In this document: in pieces, positions 4,700 through 19,261 of the stretch
Layout of the letters: each line of letters starts with the position of its first letter
Position numbering within the stretch: the first letter of the stretch is position 1
DNA from: the human T2T-CHM13v2.0 reference genome, Homo sapiens
Strand: one strand, 5' to 3'
DNA: 64,000 nucleotides
NCBI RefSeq assembly: GCF_009914755.1
Contig: NC_060947.1
Made by a program: the position numbers and the translations under genes
The notes under the pieces: model-generated
What the model was told of the DNA's origin: nothing
Databases searched by the model: none
What the model saw: only the letters and a program-made list of their open reading frames with translations

Positions 4700-4746
4700 T
4701 ATTGCATTTCTGGAATAAATCATTTAGTCAAGATATTTAATTCTTT

Positions 4747-10099
<5,353 letters not shown>

Positions 10100-10283
10100 T
10101 GATGCTGATGTATTCAGTTTGGTAGTAGTTTGTTAAAAATTTTTACATCAATATTCATAAAGAATATTGGTTTACAGTTTTTTGTAGGATCTTTATCTGT
10201 TTTTGGTATTAATGTAATGCTAACCTCAGAATAAATTATCAACTATTCCACTTTCTTTTGTTTGTTTGTTGTTTTTTAAATAG

Positions 10284-10607
10284 TTTTTTTTTTTTTTTTT
10301 TGAAATGAAGTCTCACTCTGTTGCCCAGGCTGGAGTGCAGTGACACAACCTCAGCTTACTGCAAACTTCCCCTCCTGGGTTCAAGTGATTTTCATGCCTC
10401 AGCCTCCTGAGTAGTGGGATTACAGGCACATGCGACCACTCGTGGCTAATTTTTGTTTTTTCAGTAGAGATAGGGTTTCACCATGTTAGTAGAGACAGGG
10501 TTTCACCATGTTGTCCAGGCTGGTCTCAAACTCCTGACTTCAGGTGATCCACCTGCCTCAGCCTCCCAAAGTGCTGGGATTACAGGCATGAGACCCCACA
10601 TCTAGCC
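10284..10607 (-). mobile_element. AluS with a 25-bp internal tandem duplication
   Basis: Poly-T followed by antisense Alu dimer; agtagaga(t/c)agggtttcaccatgtt at 10463 and 10488. Confidence 0.92.
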
Positions 10608-11169
10608 TGAAAGAGTTTGAGAAAGATTGCTACTAATTACTCTTTAAATATTTAATAAAATTTGCCAGACAAGCCATCTGGTCTTAGAATTCTCTTTTAT
10701 TGGAAGGTCTTTGACTACTGATTCAATTTCTTCACCTGTTTGTCTGTCCAAACGTGGGATTTCTCCTTAAGTCAATTTTGATTGCTTTAAAAATAGAAAT
10801 TTGGCTATTTCATATAATTTATGTAGTTTGTTGATGTATAATTATCCATAGTATCCTCATTTTATTTTAAACATTATGAATAATGTCTCAACTTTTATTT
10901 CTGATTTAAGTAATTTGCATTTTCTCTCTTTTTTTCTTGGTCAGGCTAAGTAAAGTTTTGCCAATTTTTTTTTCAAAGAACCAGTTTTTGATTTTATTGA
11001 TTTTCTCTATTACTTATTGATTCTATTCTATATTTCATCAATATTTTCTCTAATCTTTATTATTTCCTTCCTTCTACTTGCTTTAGGTGTAGTTCTATCT
11101 CTTGTTCCAGTTTCTTATAGAAGATGTTTGGGTTATTGATTTTAGATTTTCTTTCCTTATTAACATATG

Positions 11170-11386
11170 TGTATTAGTGTGCTAGGGCTGACATAACATC
11201 ATACCACAGACTTATATCTTAAACAACAGAAATTTATTTTCTCACAATTCTAGAGGTTGAAAATCCAAGATCAAAGTGCCATCAGGTTTGGTGTTGGTAA
11301 GGTCTGTCTTCCTGGCTAGCAGATTCTCACCATGTCCTCATTTGCCCTCTCTTCTGTGCATGTGGAGAAAGGGAGGGAGAGAGAGT
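11170..11386 (-). mobile_element. MaLR LTR fragment (MLT1A/B-like)
   Basis: tgtattagt...aaacaacagaaatttattttctcacaattctagagg...aaatccaagatcaaagtgcc MaLR motifs. Confidence 0.7.
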
Positions 11387-11790
11387 GCATCACATAAATT
11401 TTAGTATGTTCTTCCTTAATTTTCATTTGTCTCAAGATATTATCGGATTTTCTCTTTTTGATTTCTTTTTTCACTTATTTATTATGTTGTTTAATTTATG
11501 TGTTTCCCCAATTTTTTCCTGCTATTGATTTCTAATGTTATTCCAGTTTGTTCAGAGAAGATACTTTGTATTATGTCTATCCTTTTAAATTTATTGAGAT
11601 CTGCTTTATGGTCCAGCATATGATCTATCTTGTGGAATGTTCCATGAAAACTTGAAAATAATGTATATTCTTCATTTTGTGATATAGTGTTCTATAGACG
11701 TCTGTTAGGTCTAGTTGGTTCATAATGTTGTACAAGTTCTCTATTTCCTTATTTTTTTGACTAGATCTATGCATTATTGAAAGTGAGTTA

Positions 11791-12087
<297 letters not shown>

Positions 12088-12623
12088 GTGAGTTAATCTT
12101 TAACTATTACTGTATGGTTAAATTGTATCTTTCTCCCTTTATGTCTATCAATTTTTCCTTCAAGTGTTTTGGTGTTGTGTTACTAGGTGCATTGTTTTAT
12201 CTTCTTGATGTATTTTTTTTATCTTCCTGGTGGATTAACCCTTTTATCATTATAAAATGGTTCTGTTTGTCTTTAGTAACTTTTATTGTTTTAAAGTCTA
12301 TCTTGTCCAACATCATTATAGCCACTACAACTTTCTTGTGGTTGCTATTTTCATGATATATCTTTGTTTCCATTCTTTTGCTTTTAGTTTATTTGTATCT
12401 TTGAATCTAGAGTGTCTCCTATAGAAAGAATATAGTTGGATCTTGTTTTATATGCAGCATGTTAGTCTCTGCCTTTGATTGGATTATTTAATCCTCTCAC
12501 ATTTAGTGTTATTGATACAGTTGAATTTATGTCAGCTTTTTTACGTTTTGGTTTTTATATGTCTCATGTTTTTTTTTTCTCTATCATTCTGCTGCTTTCT
12601 TTCACATCAAATGAATATTTTCT

Positions 12624-15600
12624 TTTTTTTCTTAAAGTTTATTTTTATTTATATAGACTCAGGGGTACATGTTCAGGTTTATTACATGGATATATTGAAT
12701 AGTGGTGGGTTTGGTCTTCTAGTGTACCAAACACCCAAATAGTAAACACTGTACCCAATAGGTTATTTTTCCATCCTCACCCTCCTCCCACCATCCACCC
12801 TCAAGTAGGGTCCAGTGTCTGTTGTTTTCTTCTTTGTGTCCACATGTACTCAATGTTTAGCTTCCACTTATAAGTGAGAACAGGCAGTATTTACTTTTCT
12901 GCTCCTGTGTTATTTCATTTAAGATAATGGCCTCCTGCTCCACCCATGTTGCTGCAAAGGACATAATCTACTTCTTTTACATGGCTTTGTAGTATTCCAT
13001 GGAGTATATGTACCACATTTTCTTTATCCAGTCTACTGTTGATGTGACTTTAGGTTGACTCCATGTTTTTGCTATTGTGAATAATGCTGTGATGCACATA
13101 CACATTCATGTGTTTTTATGGTAGAACAATTCATGTTCCTTTGGGTGTATGCCCAATAATTGGATTGCTAAGTTAAATAGTACATCTATTTTAAGCCATT
13201 TGAAAAATCACCAAACTGCTTTCCACAATGGCAGAACTAATTTATATTCCCACCAGCAGTGTATAAGCAGTCCCTTTTCTCCAAAACCTTGCCAGCATAT
13301 GTTATATTTTGCCTTTTTACTAATAGCCATTCTGACTAATGTGAGATGATACCTCATTTTGGTTTTGATTTGCATTTCTCTAATGATTAGTGATGTTGAG
13401 CATTTTTTCCATATGCCTGTTAGCCGCACGTATGTCTTTTTTTTTGAAAACTCCCTGTTCAAGTCTTTTGCTTGCTTTTTAATGGAGTTGTTTGGTTTTT
13501 GCTTGTTAATTTGTTTAATTTCCTTATAGATTATGGATATTAGACCCTTTTTCAATTCATGGTTTGAAAATATTTTCTCCCATTCTGTAGGTTGTCTGTT
13601 TATTCTGTTGATAGGTTCTTTTGCTGTGCAGAAAAACTTTAGTTTAATTATGTCTCATTTATTTATTTTATTTTTATTTTTATTTTTTTGCAATTGCTTT
13701 TGGTGTCTTCATCACAAAATCGTTGCCAAGTCCTATGTCTGAAGTAGTATCTCCTAGGTTATCTTTCAGGGCATTTATACCTTTAGGTTTTATATTTAAG
13801 TCTTTAATCTATCTTGAGCTGATTTGTGTATATGATATAAGGAAGAGGTCCAGTTTTAATATTCTTCATATAGCTAGCCAGTTATCACTGCACCATTTAT
13901 TGAATAGGGAGTCCTTTCCCCATTGCTTCTTTTTGTCCACTTTGTCAAAGATCAGATGGTTAGAGAAGTGCAGCTTTATTTCTGGGCGCTCTATGCTGTT
14001 CCATTGGTCTATGTGTCTATTTTTGTACCAATACCATGCTGTTTTAACTACTGTAGTTTTGTAATATAGATTGAAGTCAGGTAATGTGGTGCCTCCAGCT
14101 TTGTTCTATTTTCTTAGGATTGTTTTGGCTATTCAGGCTCTTTTTTGGCTTTACATACATTTAAATTTTTTTTTCTAATTATGTGAAGAATGTAATTGGT
14201 AGTTTGATAGGAACAGCATTAAACATTTGAATTGCTTTGGGAAGTATGACCATTTTAACAATACTGATTTCTCTTATTTATGAACACAGAGTATTTTTCT
14301 ATTTGTTTTGGTCATCTCTGATTTCTTTGAACAGTGTTTCATCATTCTGGCTCTCGAGATCTTTCCCTTCCCTGGTGAGTTGTATACCTAGCTATTTCAT
14401 TCTTTTTGTGGCTGTTGTGAAAGAGACTTTTCTTAATTTGGCACTCAGCCTGGATGTTGTTGGTGTATAGAAATGCTACTGATTATTGTACATTGATTTT
14501 GTATTCTGAAACTTTACTAAAGTTGTTTATCAGATCTTGGAGCTTTTGGGCAAAGACTGTCAAGTTTTCTAGATACAGAATGACATCATCTGTGAAGAGA
14601 GATAGTTTGACTATTGTATTAGTCCATTATCATGCTGCTAATAAAGACTTACCTGAGACTGAGTAATTTACAAAGAAAAGAGGCTTAATTAACTCACAGT
14701 TCAGCATGGCTGGGGAGATCTCAGGAAACTTACAGTCATGGCGGAAGGGGAAGCAAACACATCCCTCTTCACAGGGCGGCAGGAAGAGGTATGAGAGCCA
14801 AGTGAAGGGGGAAGCCCCATTAAAACCATCAGACCTCAAGAGAAGTCACTCATTAGCACAAGAACAGCATGATCAGCATGGGAGTAACCGCCCCCATCAT
14901 TAAATTACCTCCCACCAGGTGCCTCCCACAACACATGGGGATTATGGGAACTACAATTCGAGATGAGATTTGGGTGAGGACACAGCCAAACAATATCGAT
15001 GATCTTTCTTCCTATTTTGATGCCTTTTATTTCTTTCTCTTGCCCAATTGCTCTGGCTAGAACTTCCAGTACTATGTTGAACAGGAGTTGTGACAGTAGG
15101 AATCCTTGTCTTGTTCTGGTTATCAAGGAGAATGCTTCCATTCAGTATGATGTTGGCTGTGGGTTTGTCATAGAAGGCTCTAATTTTTTCAAGGTATGTT
15201 TGTTCCTTCAATGTCTAGTTTGTTGAGGATTTTTAACATGAAGGGATGTTGAATTTTATCAAAACCCTTTTCTGCATCCATTGAGATGATTATGTAGACT
15301 TTGTTTTTAGTTCTCTTATGTAATGAATTACATTTATTGATTTGTGTATGTTGAACCATTCCAGGGATAAAGCCTGGTGTATTAACCATTTGATGTGATG
15401 CTGGATTTGGTTTGCCAGTATTTTGTTCAGGATTTTTGCATCTATGTTCATCAAGGGTACTGTCCTGAAGTTTTCCTTTTTGGTTGTGTCTCTGCCAGGT
15501 TTTGATGTCAGCATGATGCTGGACTCATAGAATGAGTTAGGGAGGAGTCCTTCTTCTTCAAGTTTTTGGAGCAGTTTGGAGTAGGAATGGTGCCAGGTCT

Positions 15601-17791
15601 TCTTTATACAGCTGGTGGTTTAATCTTGAAATGGTGAATGTTATCAGGAATTTATCAATTTCTTTTACGATGTCTAGTTTCTGTGCATAGAGGTGTTCAT
15701 ACTAGTCTCTGAGGTTTTTTTGTATTTCTGTGGGGTCAGTGGTAATACCCTCTTTGTCGTTTCTAATTGTGTTTATTCGGATCTTCTCCCTTTTCTTCTT
15801 TATTAGTCTAGCTAGCAGCATATCAATCCTATTTATTCCTTCCAAGAACCAACTTGTGGTTTGTCGAGCTTTTGTATGGTTTTTCACAATTCAATTTCAT
15901 TCAGTTGTGCTCTGATTTTGGTTACTTCTTGTCTTCTGCTAACTTTGGGGTTGGTTTGATCTTGTGTTTCTAGTTCTTGTAGGAGTGATGTTAAGTTGTT
16001 AATTTGAGATCTTTCCAACTTTTTGATGTGGGAGTTTCATGCCATACATTTTCCTCTTAACACTGCTTTATCTTTGTTTGAGAGATTCTGGTATGTTGCA
16101 TCTTTGTTCTCATTCAAAGAATTTGCCTCAATTAAAAGACACTACGTGGCAAGTTGGATCAAGGTGCAAAATCCAAATGTCAAAGAATTTCTTGATTTTC
16201 TAGTTAATTTCATTTTTTACTCAAAAGTCATTCAGAAGCAGATTGTTTAATTTTCATGTAATTGTATCATTTTGAGCAATCTTCTTAGTATTGATTTTAA
16301 TTTTTATTGCACTGTTGACTGAGAGTGTGGTTGGTATGATTTGAGTGTTTTTGATTTTGCTGAGAATTGTTTTATGGCTAATTGTATGGTTGATTTTAGA
16401 GTGTTTGTCATGTGCAGAGGAGAAGAATGTATATTCTATTCTTGTTGGGTGGAGTGTTCTGTCATATGTCTGTTAGGTCCAGTTAATCAAGTGTTGAGTG
16501 TAAGTTTAGAATATCTTTTTCAGTTTTCCATTTCAATGATAATCTAATAATGTCAGTGGAGTGTTGAAGTCTCCTATTATTATTGTGTGGTTATCTAAGT
16601 CTCTTTGCAGGCCTCTTAGAACTTGTTTTATGAACCTAGCTTCTTCTATGTTAGGTGCATACATATTTAAGATAGTTAGATCTTCTTGTTGAATTGAACC
16701 CTTTACCATTATGGAATGCCTGTCTTTGTCTTTTTGGATCATTGTTGGTTTCAACTCTATTTTGTCTGAAATTAGAATAGCAACCCCTGCTTTTTTCTGT
16801 TTTTCATTTGCTTGGTCAATTTTTCTCTATCCCTTTACTTTAAGATATGGATGTCATTACATGTGTGATGGATCTCTTAAAGACAGCATAGATTTGGGTT
16901 TTGCTTCTTGATCCAACTTGCTACTCAGTGTCTTTTAATTGAGGCATTTAGCTCATCTACATTCAAGGTTAATATTGATATTTGCAGATTTGATACTGTC
17001 ATGTTGTTAGCTGGTTATTATGCAGACTTGATTTTGTAGTTGTTTTGTAGTGTCAATGGTCTATGTACTGAAGTGTGTTTAACACTCCCTTAAGGGTCTC
17101 TTGTAAGGCAGGTCTGATAGTAATGAATTTCCTTAGCATTTGCTTGTATGGAAAGTATCTTATTTCTTTTTCACTTATGAAGCTTAATTTGGCTGGATAT
17201 AAAATTATTGGTTTGAATTAATTTTCTTTAGGAATGATAAATATGGGCCCCCAATCTTTTCCAGTTTCTAGAGTTTCTGTTGAAAGATCAGCTGTTAGCC
17301 TAATGGTATTGTTTTTGTAGGTGACCCGCCCCTTCTCTCTAGCTGCCTTTAACATTTTTTCTTCCATTTCAACCTTGGAGAATTTGATGACTATGTGTCT
17401 TCGGGATGATCATCATGTCATACAGTCTGGAGTCTTGCCCTGACACTCTCTAAAGCAGCTTTCTTTACCAGCTCAAGTGTCCACTGGGGTCATGAGGTCT
17501 CCTGCTGATAGGATTCCAGAGGTGTGTAGTGAGAGTGGGCCACTCCTTGCCTGTTCAACTCACCCCTTTCTTAGGAGTCTCTGGGAGCCAAGAATGAGTC
17601 CCAGTACTCCTCAGCCCCCTGCAGGGTTCCCAACTTCTTCTCCCATTGGCCCAGTGTCTATATCCTCCCCCGCATCCATTCTTAATGCCTTCCCTCCAAA
17701 GATCTGCTTGAAGTGTGCCAGTCTTTCTGATATCCCAGTCTCTCAGTGGGAGATGTTTCTCCTGGCTGTTTCTAGTTGACCATCTTGAATC
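12624..17791 (-). mobile_element. Old primate L1 (L1PA15/16-like): 3'UTR, ORF2, partial ORF1 and 5' end, with an internal deletion
   Basis: ORF2p-like ORFs (13208..13555, 15290..15514, 16533..16754); L1 5'-start motif GATTCAAGATGG on the minus strand from 17791; degenerate T-tail from 12624. Confidence 0.85.
14615..14998 (-). mobile_element. THE1 solo LTR nested in the L1
   Basis: tgtattagtcc...atgctgctaataaagac...cacagccaaacaatatc, matching THE1 termini. Confidence 0.88.
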
Positions 17792-18020
17792 CTGGATGTA
17801 CAGCTACTGTCTTCTCTATTGTTACATTCCAGGTCTCTTTACTTTGCTCCAGACAGGTGATTAGGTGTGGCTTAGAGACAGCGAAACCGTTTTCCAGCTT
17901 CTGAAGGGCCCCAGCATCCCCCTATGTGTCTCTGAGTACCTGCTGATCACAGAGCAATAGAACCTGTGACAGAATCACCTGGGCCTCCTTTAACAGAAGA
18001 CATGAAGCAGTGAAGACAAC
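17792..18020 (-). pseudogene. Processed fragment of a ZNF91-family-like KRAB-ZNF mRNA (exon 1 + 96-nt KRAB-B exon) fused to the L1 5' end
   Basis: Reading down from 17888 gives [32 protein letters not shown] (KRAB-B; compare GxAVSKPDLITCLEQxKEPWN). 17888-18020 resembles KZNF exon 1 and ends GGAAAACG (canonical ...GAAATG). Confidence 0.85.
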
Positions 18021-19261
18021 TCAACTAAATATTTTCTAATGTAGCATTTTAAATTAAATTTTTTTTTTTTGCTATATGTTTTTGAAGAATTTGTAAGTGT
18101 TGCTTTAGGGTATGCCATATAAATATTAACTTATAGAATCCACTTCAAACTTATACTAGCATAATTCAGAAATGCTACTTATAGATAGCTCTATTATCTT
18201 TTCCTCATTTTGTGGGATTATTGTTCTATGTATGACATTAATTAATGCTACAAACCCGGTAACATATTGTTATGATTATTATTTTATCATTGGTAATTAT
18301 TTCTTTAGCCCAGCACAGCTTTACTTTTGCCAACCTCCTTTGTGCTGTTAGTGACAAATATAATACATATATATTACATTTCTATAAGTTAAAGGCCCAA
18401 AAATACATTACATACATATTATCGTACACAATTGCTTTTTAAATCAAATGAAGAAAAAAATACAAAACCTATGCATTTACACTGTCTTTTGTAGTTACAA
18501 AATTTCCTTTACCAGTGCTCTTTCTTTTTTTGTGTGGATTTGAATTACCAAATGGGATTACTGGTGTTCATCCTGAAGATTTCCTTTACTATTTTCTATA
18601 AGGCAGATTTGCTAGCAACAAATTTTTCTAGTTTTTGCTTTTCTAGTTTCCATTTCTATTAATGTTTGAATGATAGTTTGGTTGGCTATAGAATGCCTGG
18701 TGGATAGAATTTTTTTCGGAATAATTTCAATGCTTTCCCACTGCCTTATTGATCTCCATAGTTTCTTCTGAGGAGTCAGCTGTTAATACTATTAGAGTTC
18801 CCTTCTAAATAATAAGCTGTTTTTCTCTTGTTGCTTTCAGAATTTTCTTCTTGAATTTGACTTTCAGAAGTTTTACTATGATGATGTATTTATTTGTAGA
18901 TCTCTTTGTGTTTATCCTATTTGAAGTTCATTAAACATCCTGAATGTGTATGCTGTTTTTTGATAACCTTGTGAGGTTTTAAGACATTATTTCTTCACAT
19001 ATGTTTTTCTGCTTCTTCCCCTTTTCTTCTTCTGATACTGACATTACACATATGTTGGTGCACTTAATGATGACCCACATTACTCTGACAGTGTTCATTT
19101 TTCTCTATTGTTTTTTCTCTCTGTTCTTTGGCTTGCATATCTATCACTCTATCTTCAAGTTCACTTATTCCTTCTTCTGGCAGTTCAATCAATGTCTCCT
19201 CCAGTGGATTTTAAATTTTAATTATTTTGCTTTTCAACTTCAGTGCTTTCATTAGGCTCTT

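What the first reader, a model, noticed from the sequence alone, without database searches (positions are those of the whole stretch)
12607..18037. Retrotransposed KRAB-ZNF/L1 chimera: spliced KZNF exon 1 + KRAB-B exon fused to an L1 5' end, inside one TSD
Seen: a 17-bp near-duplication (tcaaatgaatattttct 12607-12623; tcaactaaatattttct 18021-18037; 15/17) at an endonuclease-like TT/AGAAAA site. It encloses the L1 plus 229 extra bases upstream of the L1 5' start. On the minus strand, 17887-17792 is exactly 96 nt, runs GTTTCGCTGTCTCTAAGCC...CATCCAG, and encodes (G)[31 protein letters not shown]. Established: ZNF91-family KRAB-B exons are 96 nt with this peptide pattern, and their first exons end in ...GAAATG; here 18020-17888 ends GCTGGAAAACG and resembles such an exon 1 (recalled similarity). 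Inference: a KZNF promoter drove a transcript that skipped the KRAB-A exon and spliced into an intronic sense L1, which was then reverse-transcribed (spliced 5' transduction). An L1 would thus have borrowed the promoter of a gene family that represses retroelements. Without KRAB-A the B box is out of frame with the start codon, so no KRAB protein is expected. The nested THE1 shows the event predates that LTR insertion. I cannot tell whether this copy is already annotated.
Basis: partly seen in the sequence, partly recalled or inferred. Interest (0 to 1): 0.85.

Follow-up and report, generated by a model that had tools for sequence, protein, structure and literature searches.

The report
KZNF exons fused to old L1
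An ancient LINE-1 copy on the human X chromosome was inserted together with two spliced exons of a KRAB zinc-finger gene stuck to its front end; this kind of gene/LINE-1 hybrid is already described, but this copy is not in the published list and this gene type turns out to have fused with LINE-1 repeatedly.

Summary
On the minus strand, 12624-18020 is one LINE-1-mediated insertion. It is bounded by a 17-bp target-site duplication (15/17; reached in 1 of 2000 shuffles) at a TT/AGAAAA site. In 13 of 14 informative paralogous copies of the older host repeat, the two flanks abut with exactly a 17-nt overlap.

- **The 5' 229 nt.** KZNF exon 1 (133 nt, ATG now ACG) is joined directly to a 96-nt KRAB-B exon, skipping KRAB-A. 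The KRAB-B segment is 76-81% identical to 8 full-length KRAB-B exons elsewhere; the 6 genomic ones are bounded by AG/GT.
- **The L1 junction.** The KRAB-B donor abuts nt 1 of an old primate L1, the same start as in 29 related full-length copies.
- **Later changes.** The L1 lost roughly 0.65-1 kb (5'UTR/ORF1) and received a solo LTR.
- **Novelty.** The class is in print: Law & Burns 2026 list 17 mRNA/L1 5' chimeras, one with ZNF681 exon 1. This locus is not among them.
- **Family and source.** No other copy shares the KRAB-B/L1 junction, so it is not a mobilised family. Cis-splicing from an intronic L1 is unproven, and the search for a source was cut short.
- **Unexpected.** 7 (perhaps 8) of 12 other dispersed copies of this exon-1 type are also fused to L1, each with a different architecture.

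The parts
18021..18037 (-). 5' copy of the 17-bp target-site duplication (agaaaatatttagttga), preceded by ..catt (TT/AGAAAA endonuclease-like site)
   Evidence: The 17-nt overlap of the flanks was seen in 13 of 14 informative host-repeat paralogs.
17888..18020 (-). 133 nt derived from the first exon of a ZNF91-like KRAB zinc-finger gene. It ends ..GCTGGAAAACG, where relatives end ..GCTGGGAAATG, so the start codon ATG is mutated to ACG. It begins about 30 nt inside the 5' ends seen in other retrocopies.
   Evidence: 76% over query 33-131 to two chr10 copies; 70.5% over 129 nt to those copies under different scoring; 63-79% partial alignments to 4 exon 1 sequences on chr19/chr7 that are followed by gtgag and to 1 in a chr9 processed pseudogene; shared GTACTGGGAG / GCTGGGAAATG type
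17792..17887 (-). 96 nt derived from the KRAB-B exon. It is joined directly to exon 1 (KRAB-A exon absent) and ends at the position of the exon's splice donor (..CATCCAG|).
   Evidence: 76-81% over the full 96 nt to 8 KRAB-B exons; the 6 genomic ones read ..aaa[at]ag|GT..CCAG|gta(g/a)gt. Peptide.
17420..17791 (-). The first ~370 nt of an old primate L1 5'UTR, starting at the family's nt 1 (GATTCAAGATGG..)
   Evidence: 72-79% identity to 29 L1 5' ends. 28 of the 29 alignments start within L1 nt 1-16 and one at nt 25.
17413..17419 (-). Junction of an internal deletion that joins L1 5'UTR position ~370 to the middle of ORF1. About 0.65-1 kb is missing. There is no GT..AG at the deleted ends in relatives, so it is not a splice.
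17053..17412 (-). L1 ORF1 C-terminal half (RBD-like and dsRBD-like domains), broken by stops
   Evidence: PF02994 E 3.3e-15; PF17490 E 3.7e-18
14999..17052 (-). L1 ORF2 N-terminal part (endonuclease, start of the reverse transcriptase), degenerate
   Evidence: PF03372 E 3e-5 (16533-16826); PF00078 E 5.8e-6 (15189-15524). ORFs.
14615..14998 (-). Nested 384-nt solo LTR (MaLR, THE1/MST-like by recalled motifs; not tested against a library), same orientation, interrupting ORF2
   Evidence: sequence read; L1 ORF2 resumes on both sides
12634..14614 (-). Rest of L1 ORF2 and the 3'UTR, with AATAAA-type signals at 12637-12650
12624..12633 (-). Short A-rich tail (aagaaaaaaa)
12607..12623 (-). 3' copy of the target-site duplication (agaaaatattcatttga)

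Best explanation
12624-18020 (minus strand) is the fossil of one LINE-1 target-primed reverse-transcription event, and its template was a hybrid.

- Structure of the hybrid: the capped 5' end of a KRAB zinc-finger mRNA (exon 1, spliced to the KRAB-B exon with KRAB-A skipped) is joined at the KRAB-B splice donor to nucleotide 1 of a 5'-complete L1.
- Integration: it entered an older L1 at a TT/AGAAAA site, made a 17-bp duplication, and has since decayed. The start codon was lost, about 0.65-1 kb of 5'UTR/ORF1 was deleted, a solo LTR was inserted, and many stops accumulated.
- Function: it has none today.
- Shown: the single-event boundaries, both exon identities, both exon-boundary junctions, and the L1 start.
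- Inferred: the KZNF and L1 parts were already one RNA before reverse transcription, made by splicing of a KZNF pre-mRNA to an L1-containing transcript. This could have happened in cis from an L1 inside or behind the gene, or in trans. I put about 0.6 on the splicing step and 0.9 on the single-event chimera.
- Promoter: the copy carries no KZNF upstream promoter. Any promoter borrowing happened only at the unknown source.
For: 1. One insertion. TSD 15/17 (1 of 2000 shuffles). The flanks are contiguous, with a 17-nt overlap, in 13 of 14 informative paralogs of the host repeat. The tail is A-rich and the site is endonuclease-like.
2. KRAB-B. It is exactly 96 nt and 76-81% identical over its full length to 8 KRAB-B exons. 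The 6 genomic ones are bounded by AG and GT at exactly these ends. 38 of the 39 non-self hits are KRAB-B exons.
3. Exon 1. Homology ends at the donor (..GAAATG|gtgag in the genes).
4. The exon 1 -> KRAB-B isoform exists independently in retrocopies: L043 on chr11, L008 on chrX, and chr3:143.35 Mb.
5. The L1 start at 17791 equals the start of 29 related copies with unrelated flanks.
6. The L1 domains are colinear on the same strand.
7. The same architecture is published: exons ending at a splice donor, L1 beginning within its first 10 nt, TSD around both, and near-full-length L1. PMC13174262 reports 17 cases; I read section 13 and the whole of Table S5.
Against: - No extant gene matches both exons closely. 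The best KRAB-B match is 81-82% (chr16:32.11 Mb) and the best exon 1 matches are themselves retrocopies (76%, chr10). The parent is therefore inferred from a paralogous family.
- Exon 1 alignments to the 4 genomic first exons on chr19/chr7 are weak (63-79%, partial).
- Pfam KRAB does not detect the B-box peptide. This is expected if the model is mostly the A box, which is my recollection.
- No source L1 in a KZNF intron was found.
- A splice acceptor exactly at L1 nt 1 is an unexplained coincidence under cis-splicing.
- No cross-species empty site could be examined.
Confidence: 0.85

Rival explanations
1. The fusion happened during reverse transcription. ORF2p copied a normal, self-promoted L1 RNA to its capped 5' end and then jumped end-to-end onto a KZNF RNA whose 3' end lay at the KRAB-B donor. 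Such an RNA could be the free 5'-exon intermediate of splicing of the next intron. On this reading no promoter was borrowed.
For: - The junction is at L1 nt 1, which a run-off at the end of the template explains without needing an acceptor site.
- In the other KZNF/L1 fusions the L1 side starts at slightly different nucleotides around ..CAAGATGG, and some have 4-5 extra bases (L103, L101). This looks like the start-site heterogeneity of independent L1 RNAs rather than one fixed acceptor.
- The KZNF sides end at three different donors: exon 1, KRAB-A and KRAB-B.
- Law & Burns found no L1 splice site when the L1 began within its first 10 nt.
Against: - It needs an RNA that ends exactly at a splice donor, a rare spliceosome-bound species.
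- Law & Burns argue that a splice junction disfavours template switching.
- The known template-switch chimeras (U6/L1) usually carry 5'-truncated L1 (same section).
Confidence: 0.22
2. Two separate events: an L1 happened to insert into an older processed pseudogene of a KZNF mRNA at the exon 3/4 boundary.
For: Ordinary processed pseudogenes of this gene type exist (L097, L102, L049, L043).
Against: - The TSD and the 17-nt overlap of the host-repeat flanks enclose the 229 nt and the L1 together (13 of 14).
- No KZNF exon 4 or zinc-finger sequence follows the L1. The host repeat resumes at 12606.
- It would need an insertion exactly at an exon boundary.
Confidence: 0.02
3. It is a member of a mobilised L1 sub-lineage that carried KZNF exons as a new 5' leader, analogous to the SVA family that carries MAST2 exon 1.
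For: - Many dispersed fusions of this exon-1 type to L1 exist.
- L093 and chr1:157.43 Mb align through exon 1, linker and L1 (68% over 313 nt).
Against: - No second copy of the KRAB-B/L1 junction: 0 of 39 and 0 of 39.
- No second copy of the L103, L101 or L092 architectures: 0 of 39 each.
- The L1 parts of the fusions are no closer to one another (67-83%) than to non-chimeric copies (65-82%).
- None of 29 related full-length L1s has KZNF sequence upstream.
Confidence: 0.04

Closest known systems
[quoted passage not shown] I read the abstract, sections 13, 22, 23 and 40, passages of sections 14, 17, 20 and 21, and the whole of Table S5.
   Same: - First exons of a gene lie in sense orientation upstream of a 5'-complete L1.
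- The last exon ends at its splice donor and the L1 begins within its first nucleotides.
- One TSD (17 bp here; 12-17 bp in 16 of their 17 rows and 9 bp in one), an endonuclease motif and an A tail surround both parts.
- Their row 1 is a ZNF681-assigned exon 1 plus L1 (hg38 chr3:94.44 Mb, which is L092 here).
   Different: - This locus is not among their 17 rows. Their only chrX L1 has another TSD.
- This is the only case I saw with a KRAB-B exon as the last exon.
- The L1 here is older and internally deleted.
- Their text does not mention recurrence for KZNF genes: 'ZNF' occurs 0 times in the main text and once in the supplements.
RAP1GDS1/L1PA2 chimeras (same paper): an intronic L1 driven by a host promoter, spliced through a cryptic acceptor 15 bp upstream of the L1
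   Same: Host 5' exons were spliced to an L1 and retrotransposed.
   Different: In that case the source L1 is identified and two progeny share the junction. Here no source and no sibling were found, and no flank bases lie between the exon and the L1.
SVA_F1 (MAST2 exon 1 spliced onto SVA). This is from my recall of Damert, Hancks and Bantysh 2009; only the search listing was seen.
   Same: A host first exon was acquired by splicing and carried at the 5' end of a non-LTR retrotransposon.
   Different: SVA_F1 became a family of many copies. This junction is a single copy.
U6/L1 and other template-switch chimeric retrogenes (the Buzdin type; recalled, and summarised in PMC13174262 section 13)
   Same: Two RNAs end up in one TPRT product inside one TSD.
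   Different: Those usually have 5'-truncated L1 and junctions unrelated to exon boundaries. L008 (chrX:91.94 Mb) looks more like that type.
SpIRE (spliced integrated retrotransposed elements), PMC5860796 (search listing and abstract only)
   Same: L1 copies that lack an internal part of the 5'UTR.
   Different: The deletion here (L1 ~370 to mid-ORF1) has no GT..AG at its ends in relatives, so it is an ordinary deletion.

Membership tests
mRNA/LINE-1 5' chimeric insertion (Law & Burns 2026 class) | One TSD flanks the non-L1 part and the L1 together | tested here: met
   15/17 TSD. The 17-nt overlap of the flanks was seen in 13 of 14 informative host-repeat paralogs.
mRNA/LINE-1 5' chimeric insertion (Law & Burns 2026 class) | ORF2p endonuclease-type site and a poly(A) tail | tested here: met
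   TT/AGAAAA site and a 10-nt A-rich tail after AATAAA-type signals. The tail is short.
mRNA/LINE-1 5' chimeric insertion (Law & Burns 2026 class) | The non-L1 part maps to the first exons of a gene, spliced, in sense with the L1 | tested here: met
   Exon 1 and the KRAB-B exon were identified by homology to paralogs. The exact parent gene was not identified.
mRNA/LINE-1 5' chimeric insertion (Law & Burns 2026 class) | The last exon ends at its splice donor | tested here: met
   ..CCAG| in the window against ..CCAG|gta(g/a)gt in 6 genomic exons.
mRNA/LINE-1 5' chimeric insertion (Law & Burns 2026 class) | Both parts arrive together in a species alignment | not testable with these tools
   No other primate genome or multiple alignment was on hand.
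KRAB-B exon of a ZNF91-like KZNF gene | A 96-nt exon with the B-box reading frame, homologous to annotated family exons | tested here: met
   96 nt; open frame; 76-81% identity over the full length. Gene names are recalled; the tool gives only coordinates.
KRAB-B exon of a ZNF91-like KZNF gene | Recognised by the Pfam KRAB model | tested here: not met
   0 families for the 31-aa and 49-aa peptides. By my recall the model is centred on the A box, so this is weak evidence.
Mobilised 5'-transduction family (SVA_F1-like) | Several copies with different TSDs share the same junction | tested here: not met
   0 of 39 and 0 of 39. Only 40 of 84 and 40 of 385 candidates were scored.
SpIRE | The internal deletion is bounded by L1 splice donor and acceptor | tested here: not met
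   Relatives read ..CTGCATG|GAGCC.. and ..CCAAA|ATGATC.. at the two ends.
   No Dfam or Repbase was on hand. Pairwise identity of 79-82% to related 5' ends fits an old primate L1.

The most novel reading that the evidence does not exclude
Transcripts of one KZNF paralog group (exon 1 ending ..GCTGGGAAATG) were a recurrent 5' partner of LINE-1 in early primates.

Besides the window (exon 1 - KRAB-B | L1), at least seven other dispersed loci carry this exon 1 fused to L1, in different architectures:
- exon 1 | L1;
- exon 1 - KRAB-A | L1;
- exon 1 - short linker | L1;
- exon 1 - linker | internal L1.

Each is essentially single-copy. This would make the gene family that evolved to silence retroelements the commonest host partner of L1 chimeras.

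The KZNF sides end at three different splice donors, and the L1 sides start at heterogeneous nucleotides around nt 1. That pattern would point to recombination at the capped L1 5' end (an ORF2p jump onto free 5'-exon splicing intermediates, or trans-splicing) rather than to one intronic source.
Probability: 0.45. Interest if true: 0.65.

Novelty: new member of a known kind. Interest (0 to 1): 0.45.

Why it matters
- **As a single locus.** It is a decayed, non-functional fossil, and another example of a class catalogued in 2026. It adds an old case to that list and the only one I saw with a KRAB-B exon.
- **The wider pattern.** If it holds, it bears on two open questions raised in that paper. 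The first is how host exons get joined to nucleotide 1 of L1: cis-splicing, trans-splicing or template jumping. The second is whether such fusions are the route by which L1 lineages replace their 5'UTRs.
- **Why the KZNF fusions help.** A set of independent fusions from one gene type, ending at different donors, is a natural experiment for telling these mechanisms apart.
A repressor family feeding sequence to its target is real only at the level of transcripts. The inserted copy carries no KZNF upstream promoter.

Tried and rejected
- **Source locus.** No L1 5' start lies within 1.5 kb of 7 KRAB-B loci (L002-L008).
- **Siblings.** Genome searches across the junction found none.
- **SpIRE reading of the internal deletion.** Rejected; there is no GT..AG.
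- **L1 inserted into a pseudogene.** Rejected by flank continuity.
- **Common origin with the published ZNF681/L1 chimera (L092).** Rejected:
  - blastn aligns the L1 5' parts at only 68% over 342 nt;
  - exon 1 is of the other (..GCCTAGAAAT) type;
  - L092's L1 belongs to a family with 79-85% relatives that did not appear among the window's hits.
- **Pfam KRAB on the peptide.** Nothing found.
- **Literature.**
  - Search, all on the held library, found no paper on KZNF exon/L1 fusions other than PMC13174262.
  - One search returned 0 papers, probably because the prime in "5' transduction" cannot be searched.
  - The unreadable supplementary PDFs of that paper (mmc1, mmc6, mmc7) may hold Figures S7-S8 that bear on the junctions.


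Full report
**What is in the sequence.** The window is human T2T chrX:64,356,001-64,420,000, and the element lies on the minus strand. Reading 18200 down to 17500 and 12800 down to 12500 gives, in order:
- host DNA ending ..gctacatt;
- the 17-mer agaaaatatttagttga (18037..18021);
- 133 nt ending ..GCTGGAAAACG (18020..17888);
- 96 nt GTTTCGCTGTCTCTAAGCC..CATCCAG (17887..17792);
- GATTCAAGATGGTCAACTAGAAACAGCC.. (from 17791);
- about 5.2 kb further on, AATAAA-type signals and a 10-nt A-rich tail;
- the 17-mer agaaaatattcatttga (12623..12607), then host DNA.

The two 17-mers agree at 15 of 17 positions. A match that good anywhere in 17792-18400 arose in 1 of 2000 shuffles.

**One insertion, not two.**
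- The DNA on both sides belongs to one older dispersed repeat, an old L1 near its ORF1/ORF2 boundary by my reading of the sequence (40 scored of 227 candidates, 71-77% identity).
- I aligned both flanks to the 29 paralogous copies fetched.
- 14 copies had matches from both flanks that reach the junction. In 13 of those 14 the flanks meet with exactly a 17-nt overlap, which is the duplicated 17-mer.
- One copy was inconsistent, 12 matched one flank only, and 3 had matches that stop short of the junction.
- This stands in for an empty site. It shows that 12624-18020, including the 229 non-L1 bases, entered in one event.
- It rules out an L1 landing in an older KZNF pseudogene. No zinc-finger exon follows the L1 either.

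**The 229 bases.**
- A genome search with 18037-17770 (40 scored of 84 candidates) returned the locus itself and 39 others.
- 38 of these cover only the 96-nt segment, starting at query 144-160. They lie mainly on chr19 at 21.9-24.3 Mb and chr7 at 56.9-57.7 and 64.5-66.6 Mb, with single hits at chr16:32.1, chr1:246.6 and chr4:0.34 Mb and a few elsewhere.
- In 6 genomic exons the homologous 96 nt are bounded by ..aaa[at]ag| and |gta(g/a)gt. Two processed pseudogenes carry the same 96 nt. Identity to the window over all 96 nt is 76-81% for these 8.
- The reading frame gives [33 protein letters not shown].
- The 133-nt segment matched two chr10 copies at 76%.
- In local alignment it matched 4 first exons on chr19 and chr7 that end ..GAAATG|gtgag, and one in a chr9 processed pseudogene (63-79%, partial).
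- The window's copy ends at that very point, with ATG changed to ACG. The 96-nt exon follows directly, so the KRAB-A exon is missing.
- The exon 1 -> KRAB-B isoform is not peculiar to this locus. L043 (chr11) carries exon 1 + KRAB-B + the next exon. chr3:143.35 Mb and L008 (chrX:91.94 Mb) also join exon 1 to KRAB-B. L049 and L047 keep KRAB-A.
- Pfam's KRAB model did not detect the short peptide.

**The L1.**
- A search with 49 nt of KRAB-B plus 232 nt of L1 (40 scored of 385) gave 39 other L1 5' ends at 74-80% identity.
- All of them start at query 46-74, where L1 nt 1 is query 50. None extends into the KRAB-B part.
- In the 29 fetched, the sequence upstream of ..(G)AGCCAAGATGG is unrelated from copy to copy. 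So 17791 is this family's true 5' end; L013 even shares the GATTCAAGATGG variant.
- The first ~370 nt match relatives. The copy then jumps to mid-ORF1.
- Relatives show no GT..AG at the two ends, so this is a plain deletion of roughly 0.65-1 kb and not a spliced L1.
- ORF1 RBD-like and dsRBD-like domains, the endonuclease and the reverse transcriptase follow in order on the minus strand.
- A 384-nt solo LTR (14998..14615) interrupts ORF2.
- Identity of 79-82% to non-chimeric relatives over the first 240 nt fits an L1 several tens of millions of years old. That age is an inference.

**Mechanism.**
- Shown: a single TPRT product whose 5' part consists of two KZNF exons joined at exon boundaries and whose L1 part starts at nt 1.
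- Inferred: how the two were joined.
It needs an acceptor exactly at L1 nt 1.
  - I could not test it.
  - The rival is an ORF2p end-to-end jump from the L1 cap onto a KZNF RNA that ends at the donor. It explains nt 1 but needs an unusual RNA.
- I give splicing (cis or trans) about 0.6 and template jumping about 0.2.
- Whichever holds, the inserted copy contains only transcribed exon 1, not the KZNF upstream promoter.

**What is known.** Law & Burns (Cell Genomics 2026, PMC13174262) describe exactly this class. I read the abstract, sections 13, 22, 23 and 40, passages of sections 14, 17, 20 and 21, and the whole of Table S5.
- They report 17 insertions in hg38 with RNA sequences of protein-coding genes or lncRNAs fused to the L1 5' end. 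15 map to the start of the transcript and 15 are in sense orientation.
- Most carry near-full-length L1, and six end exactly at splice donors.
- Several have the L1 starting within its first 10 nt, with no L1 splice site found.
- They discuss cis- and trans-splicing and disfavour template switching.
- Row 1 of Table S5 is an exon 1 assigned to ZNF681 plus about 70 nt plus an L1, at hg38 chr3:94.44 Mb.
- The window's locus is not among the 17 rows. Their single chrX L1 has a different TSD.
- I located their chr3 case in this assembly (L092). blastn aligns its L1 5' part to the window's at 68% over 342 nt, and its exon 1 is of another type. The two are therefore independent events.
- Three further literature searches found nothing specific to KZNF/L1 fusions. 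One search is the search that surfaced PMC13174262.

**A wider pattern, seen in passing.**
- I searched the genome with the chr10 copy of this exon-1 type (40 scored of 85).
- By my sorting on recalled cluster positions, 15 hits lie in KZNF clusters, 3 are chr10 copies, and 22 are dispersed loci, five of them on chrX.
- I could fetch 12 of the 22 (L093-L104) and compared them with exon and L1 references.
- Five have the L1 5' start (reference nt 1-4) shortly after a KZNF exon end:

| Locus | Position | Architecture |
|---|---|---|
| L103 | chrX:78.79 Mb | exon 1 + about 5-7 nt + L1 |
| L101 | chrX:86.15 Mb | exon 1 + KRAB-A + L1 |
| L093 | chrX:143.30 Mb | exon 1 + 56 nt + L1 |
| L095 | chr3:7.25 Mb | exon 1 + 21 nt + L1 |
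| L099 | chr14:39.72 Mb | exon 1 + ~85 nt (including a partial repeat of exon 1) + L1 |

- Two have exon 1 followed by internal L1 sequence (L098, L104).
- One has only a 24-nt L1-start-like motif (L100).
- Two are plain processed pseudogenes (L097, L102).
- Two are unidentified downstream (L094, L096).
- chr1:157.43 Mb is a further fusion by coordinates, and it aligns to L093 through the linker.
- Searches with the L103, L101 and L092 architectures found no second copy (0 of 39 each).
- The L1 parts are no closer to each other (67-83%) than to ordinary copies (65-82%).
- These therefore look like separate events, not one amplifying lineage.
- TSDs of these other loci were not examined, because their 3' ends were not fetched. 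Nine dispersed hits were not fetched at all; one more (chr7:130.41 Mb) carries exon 1 + KRAB-A.

**Verdict.** The cis-splicing and promoter-borrowing story is unproven, and the copy is not part of a mobilised family. The class is already published, so the locus is a new member of a known kind. The recurrent use of one KZNF exon-1 type as the 5' partner of L1 is the part that may be new and deserves a proper census.

Noticed in passing
L093 (chrX:143300022-143300626), L095 (chr3:7251649-7252254), L099 (chr14:39718284-39718891), L101 (chrX:86150019-86150330), L103 (chrX:78788359-78788670); also chr1:157432092-157432414 (not fetched): In each of these, KZNF exon 1 of the same ..GCTGGGAAATG type is fused to the 5' start of an old L1. 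The middle piece differs: nothing but ~5-7 nt, the KRAB-A exon, or linkers of 21-85 nt. Each architecture is single-copy in the searches, except that L093 and chr1:157.43 Mb align through the linker.
   Followed up: partly
L098 (chr11:96621439-96622032) and L104 (chr1:176886790-176887099): Exon 1 of the same type is followed, after a short unmatched stretch, by internal L1 sequence. In L098 this is 5'UTR of another L1 family. In L104 it lies ~1.1-1.3 kb inside the window's L1 family.
   Followed up: partly
L008 / L042 (chrX:91942429-91945759), junction near chrX:91944124: KZNF exon 1 + the first 60 nt of KRAB-B (KRAB-A skipped) runs straight into at least 1.5 kb of L1 sequence of a different, younger-looking L1 family, beginning inside its 5'UTR (81-84% to L044-L055). 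The junction is mid-exon, so it is either a template-switch chimera or an L1 inserted into a retrocopy. TSDs were not examined.
   Followed up: partly
L010 / L011 (chr10:81096468-81096600 and chr10:80401934-80402066); third copy chr10:81166743: The closest relatives of the window's exon 1 are copies inside a chr10 duplication. There exon 1 ends at ..GGGAAATG and is followed by ~530 nt that matched nothing I held, and then an Alu. What they are is unexplained.
   Followed up: partly
L094 (chrX:84232145-84232755), L096 (chr17:49817945-49818552), L100 (chr6:66075956-66076579): These are dispersed exon-1 copies whose downstream sequence matched none of the loci held. L100 has a 24-nt L1-start-like motif 30 nt after exon 1.
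   Followed up: no
window 12400-12606 and 18038-18320: The host of the insertion is an older L1-like repeat in the same orientation. The downstream flank reads like the start of an L1 ORF2. Much of 4732-12097, masked in NCBI's file in several blocks, is probably the rest of it.
   Followed up: partly
window 14615-14998: A solo LTR is nested in the L1's ORF2 in the same orientation. Its first dinucleotide TG is changed to CG, and no clean short duplication is seen at its ends.
   Followed up: partly
chr7:65253423-65277514 and chr7:65521911-65544834 (not fetched): Two duplicated KZNF genes have a first exon of the chimera type (82% to the chr10 copy) lying 23-24 kb upstream of their KRAB-B exon. 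These long introns fit the long-intron tendency that Law & Burns report. They are the first place to look for a source L1.
   Followed up: no
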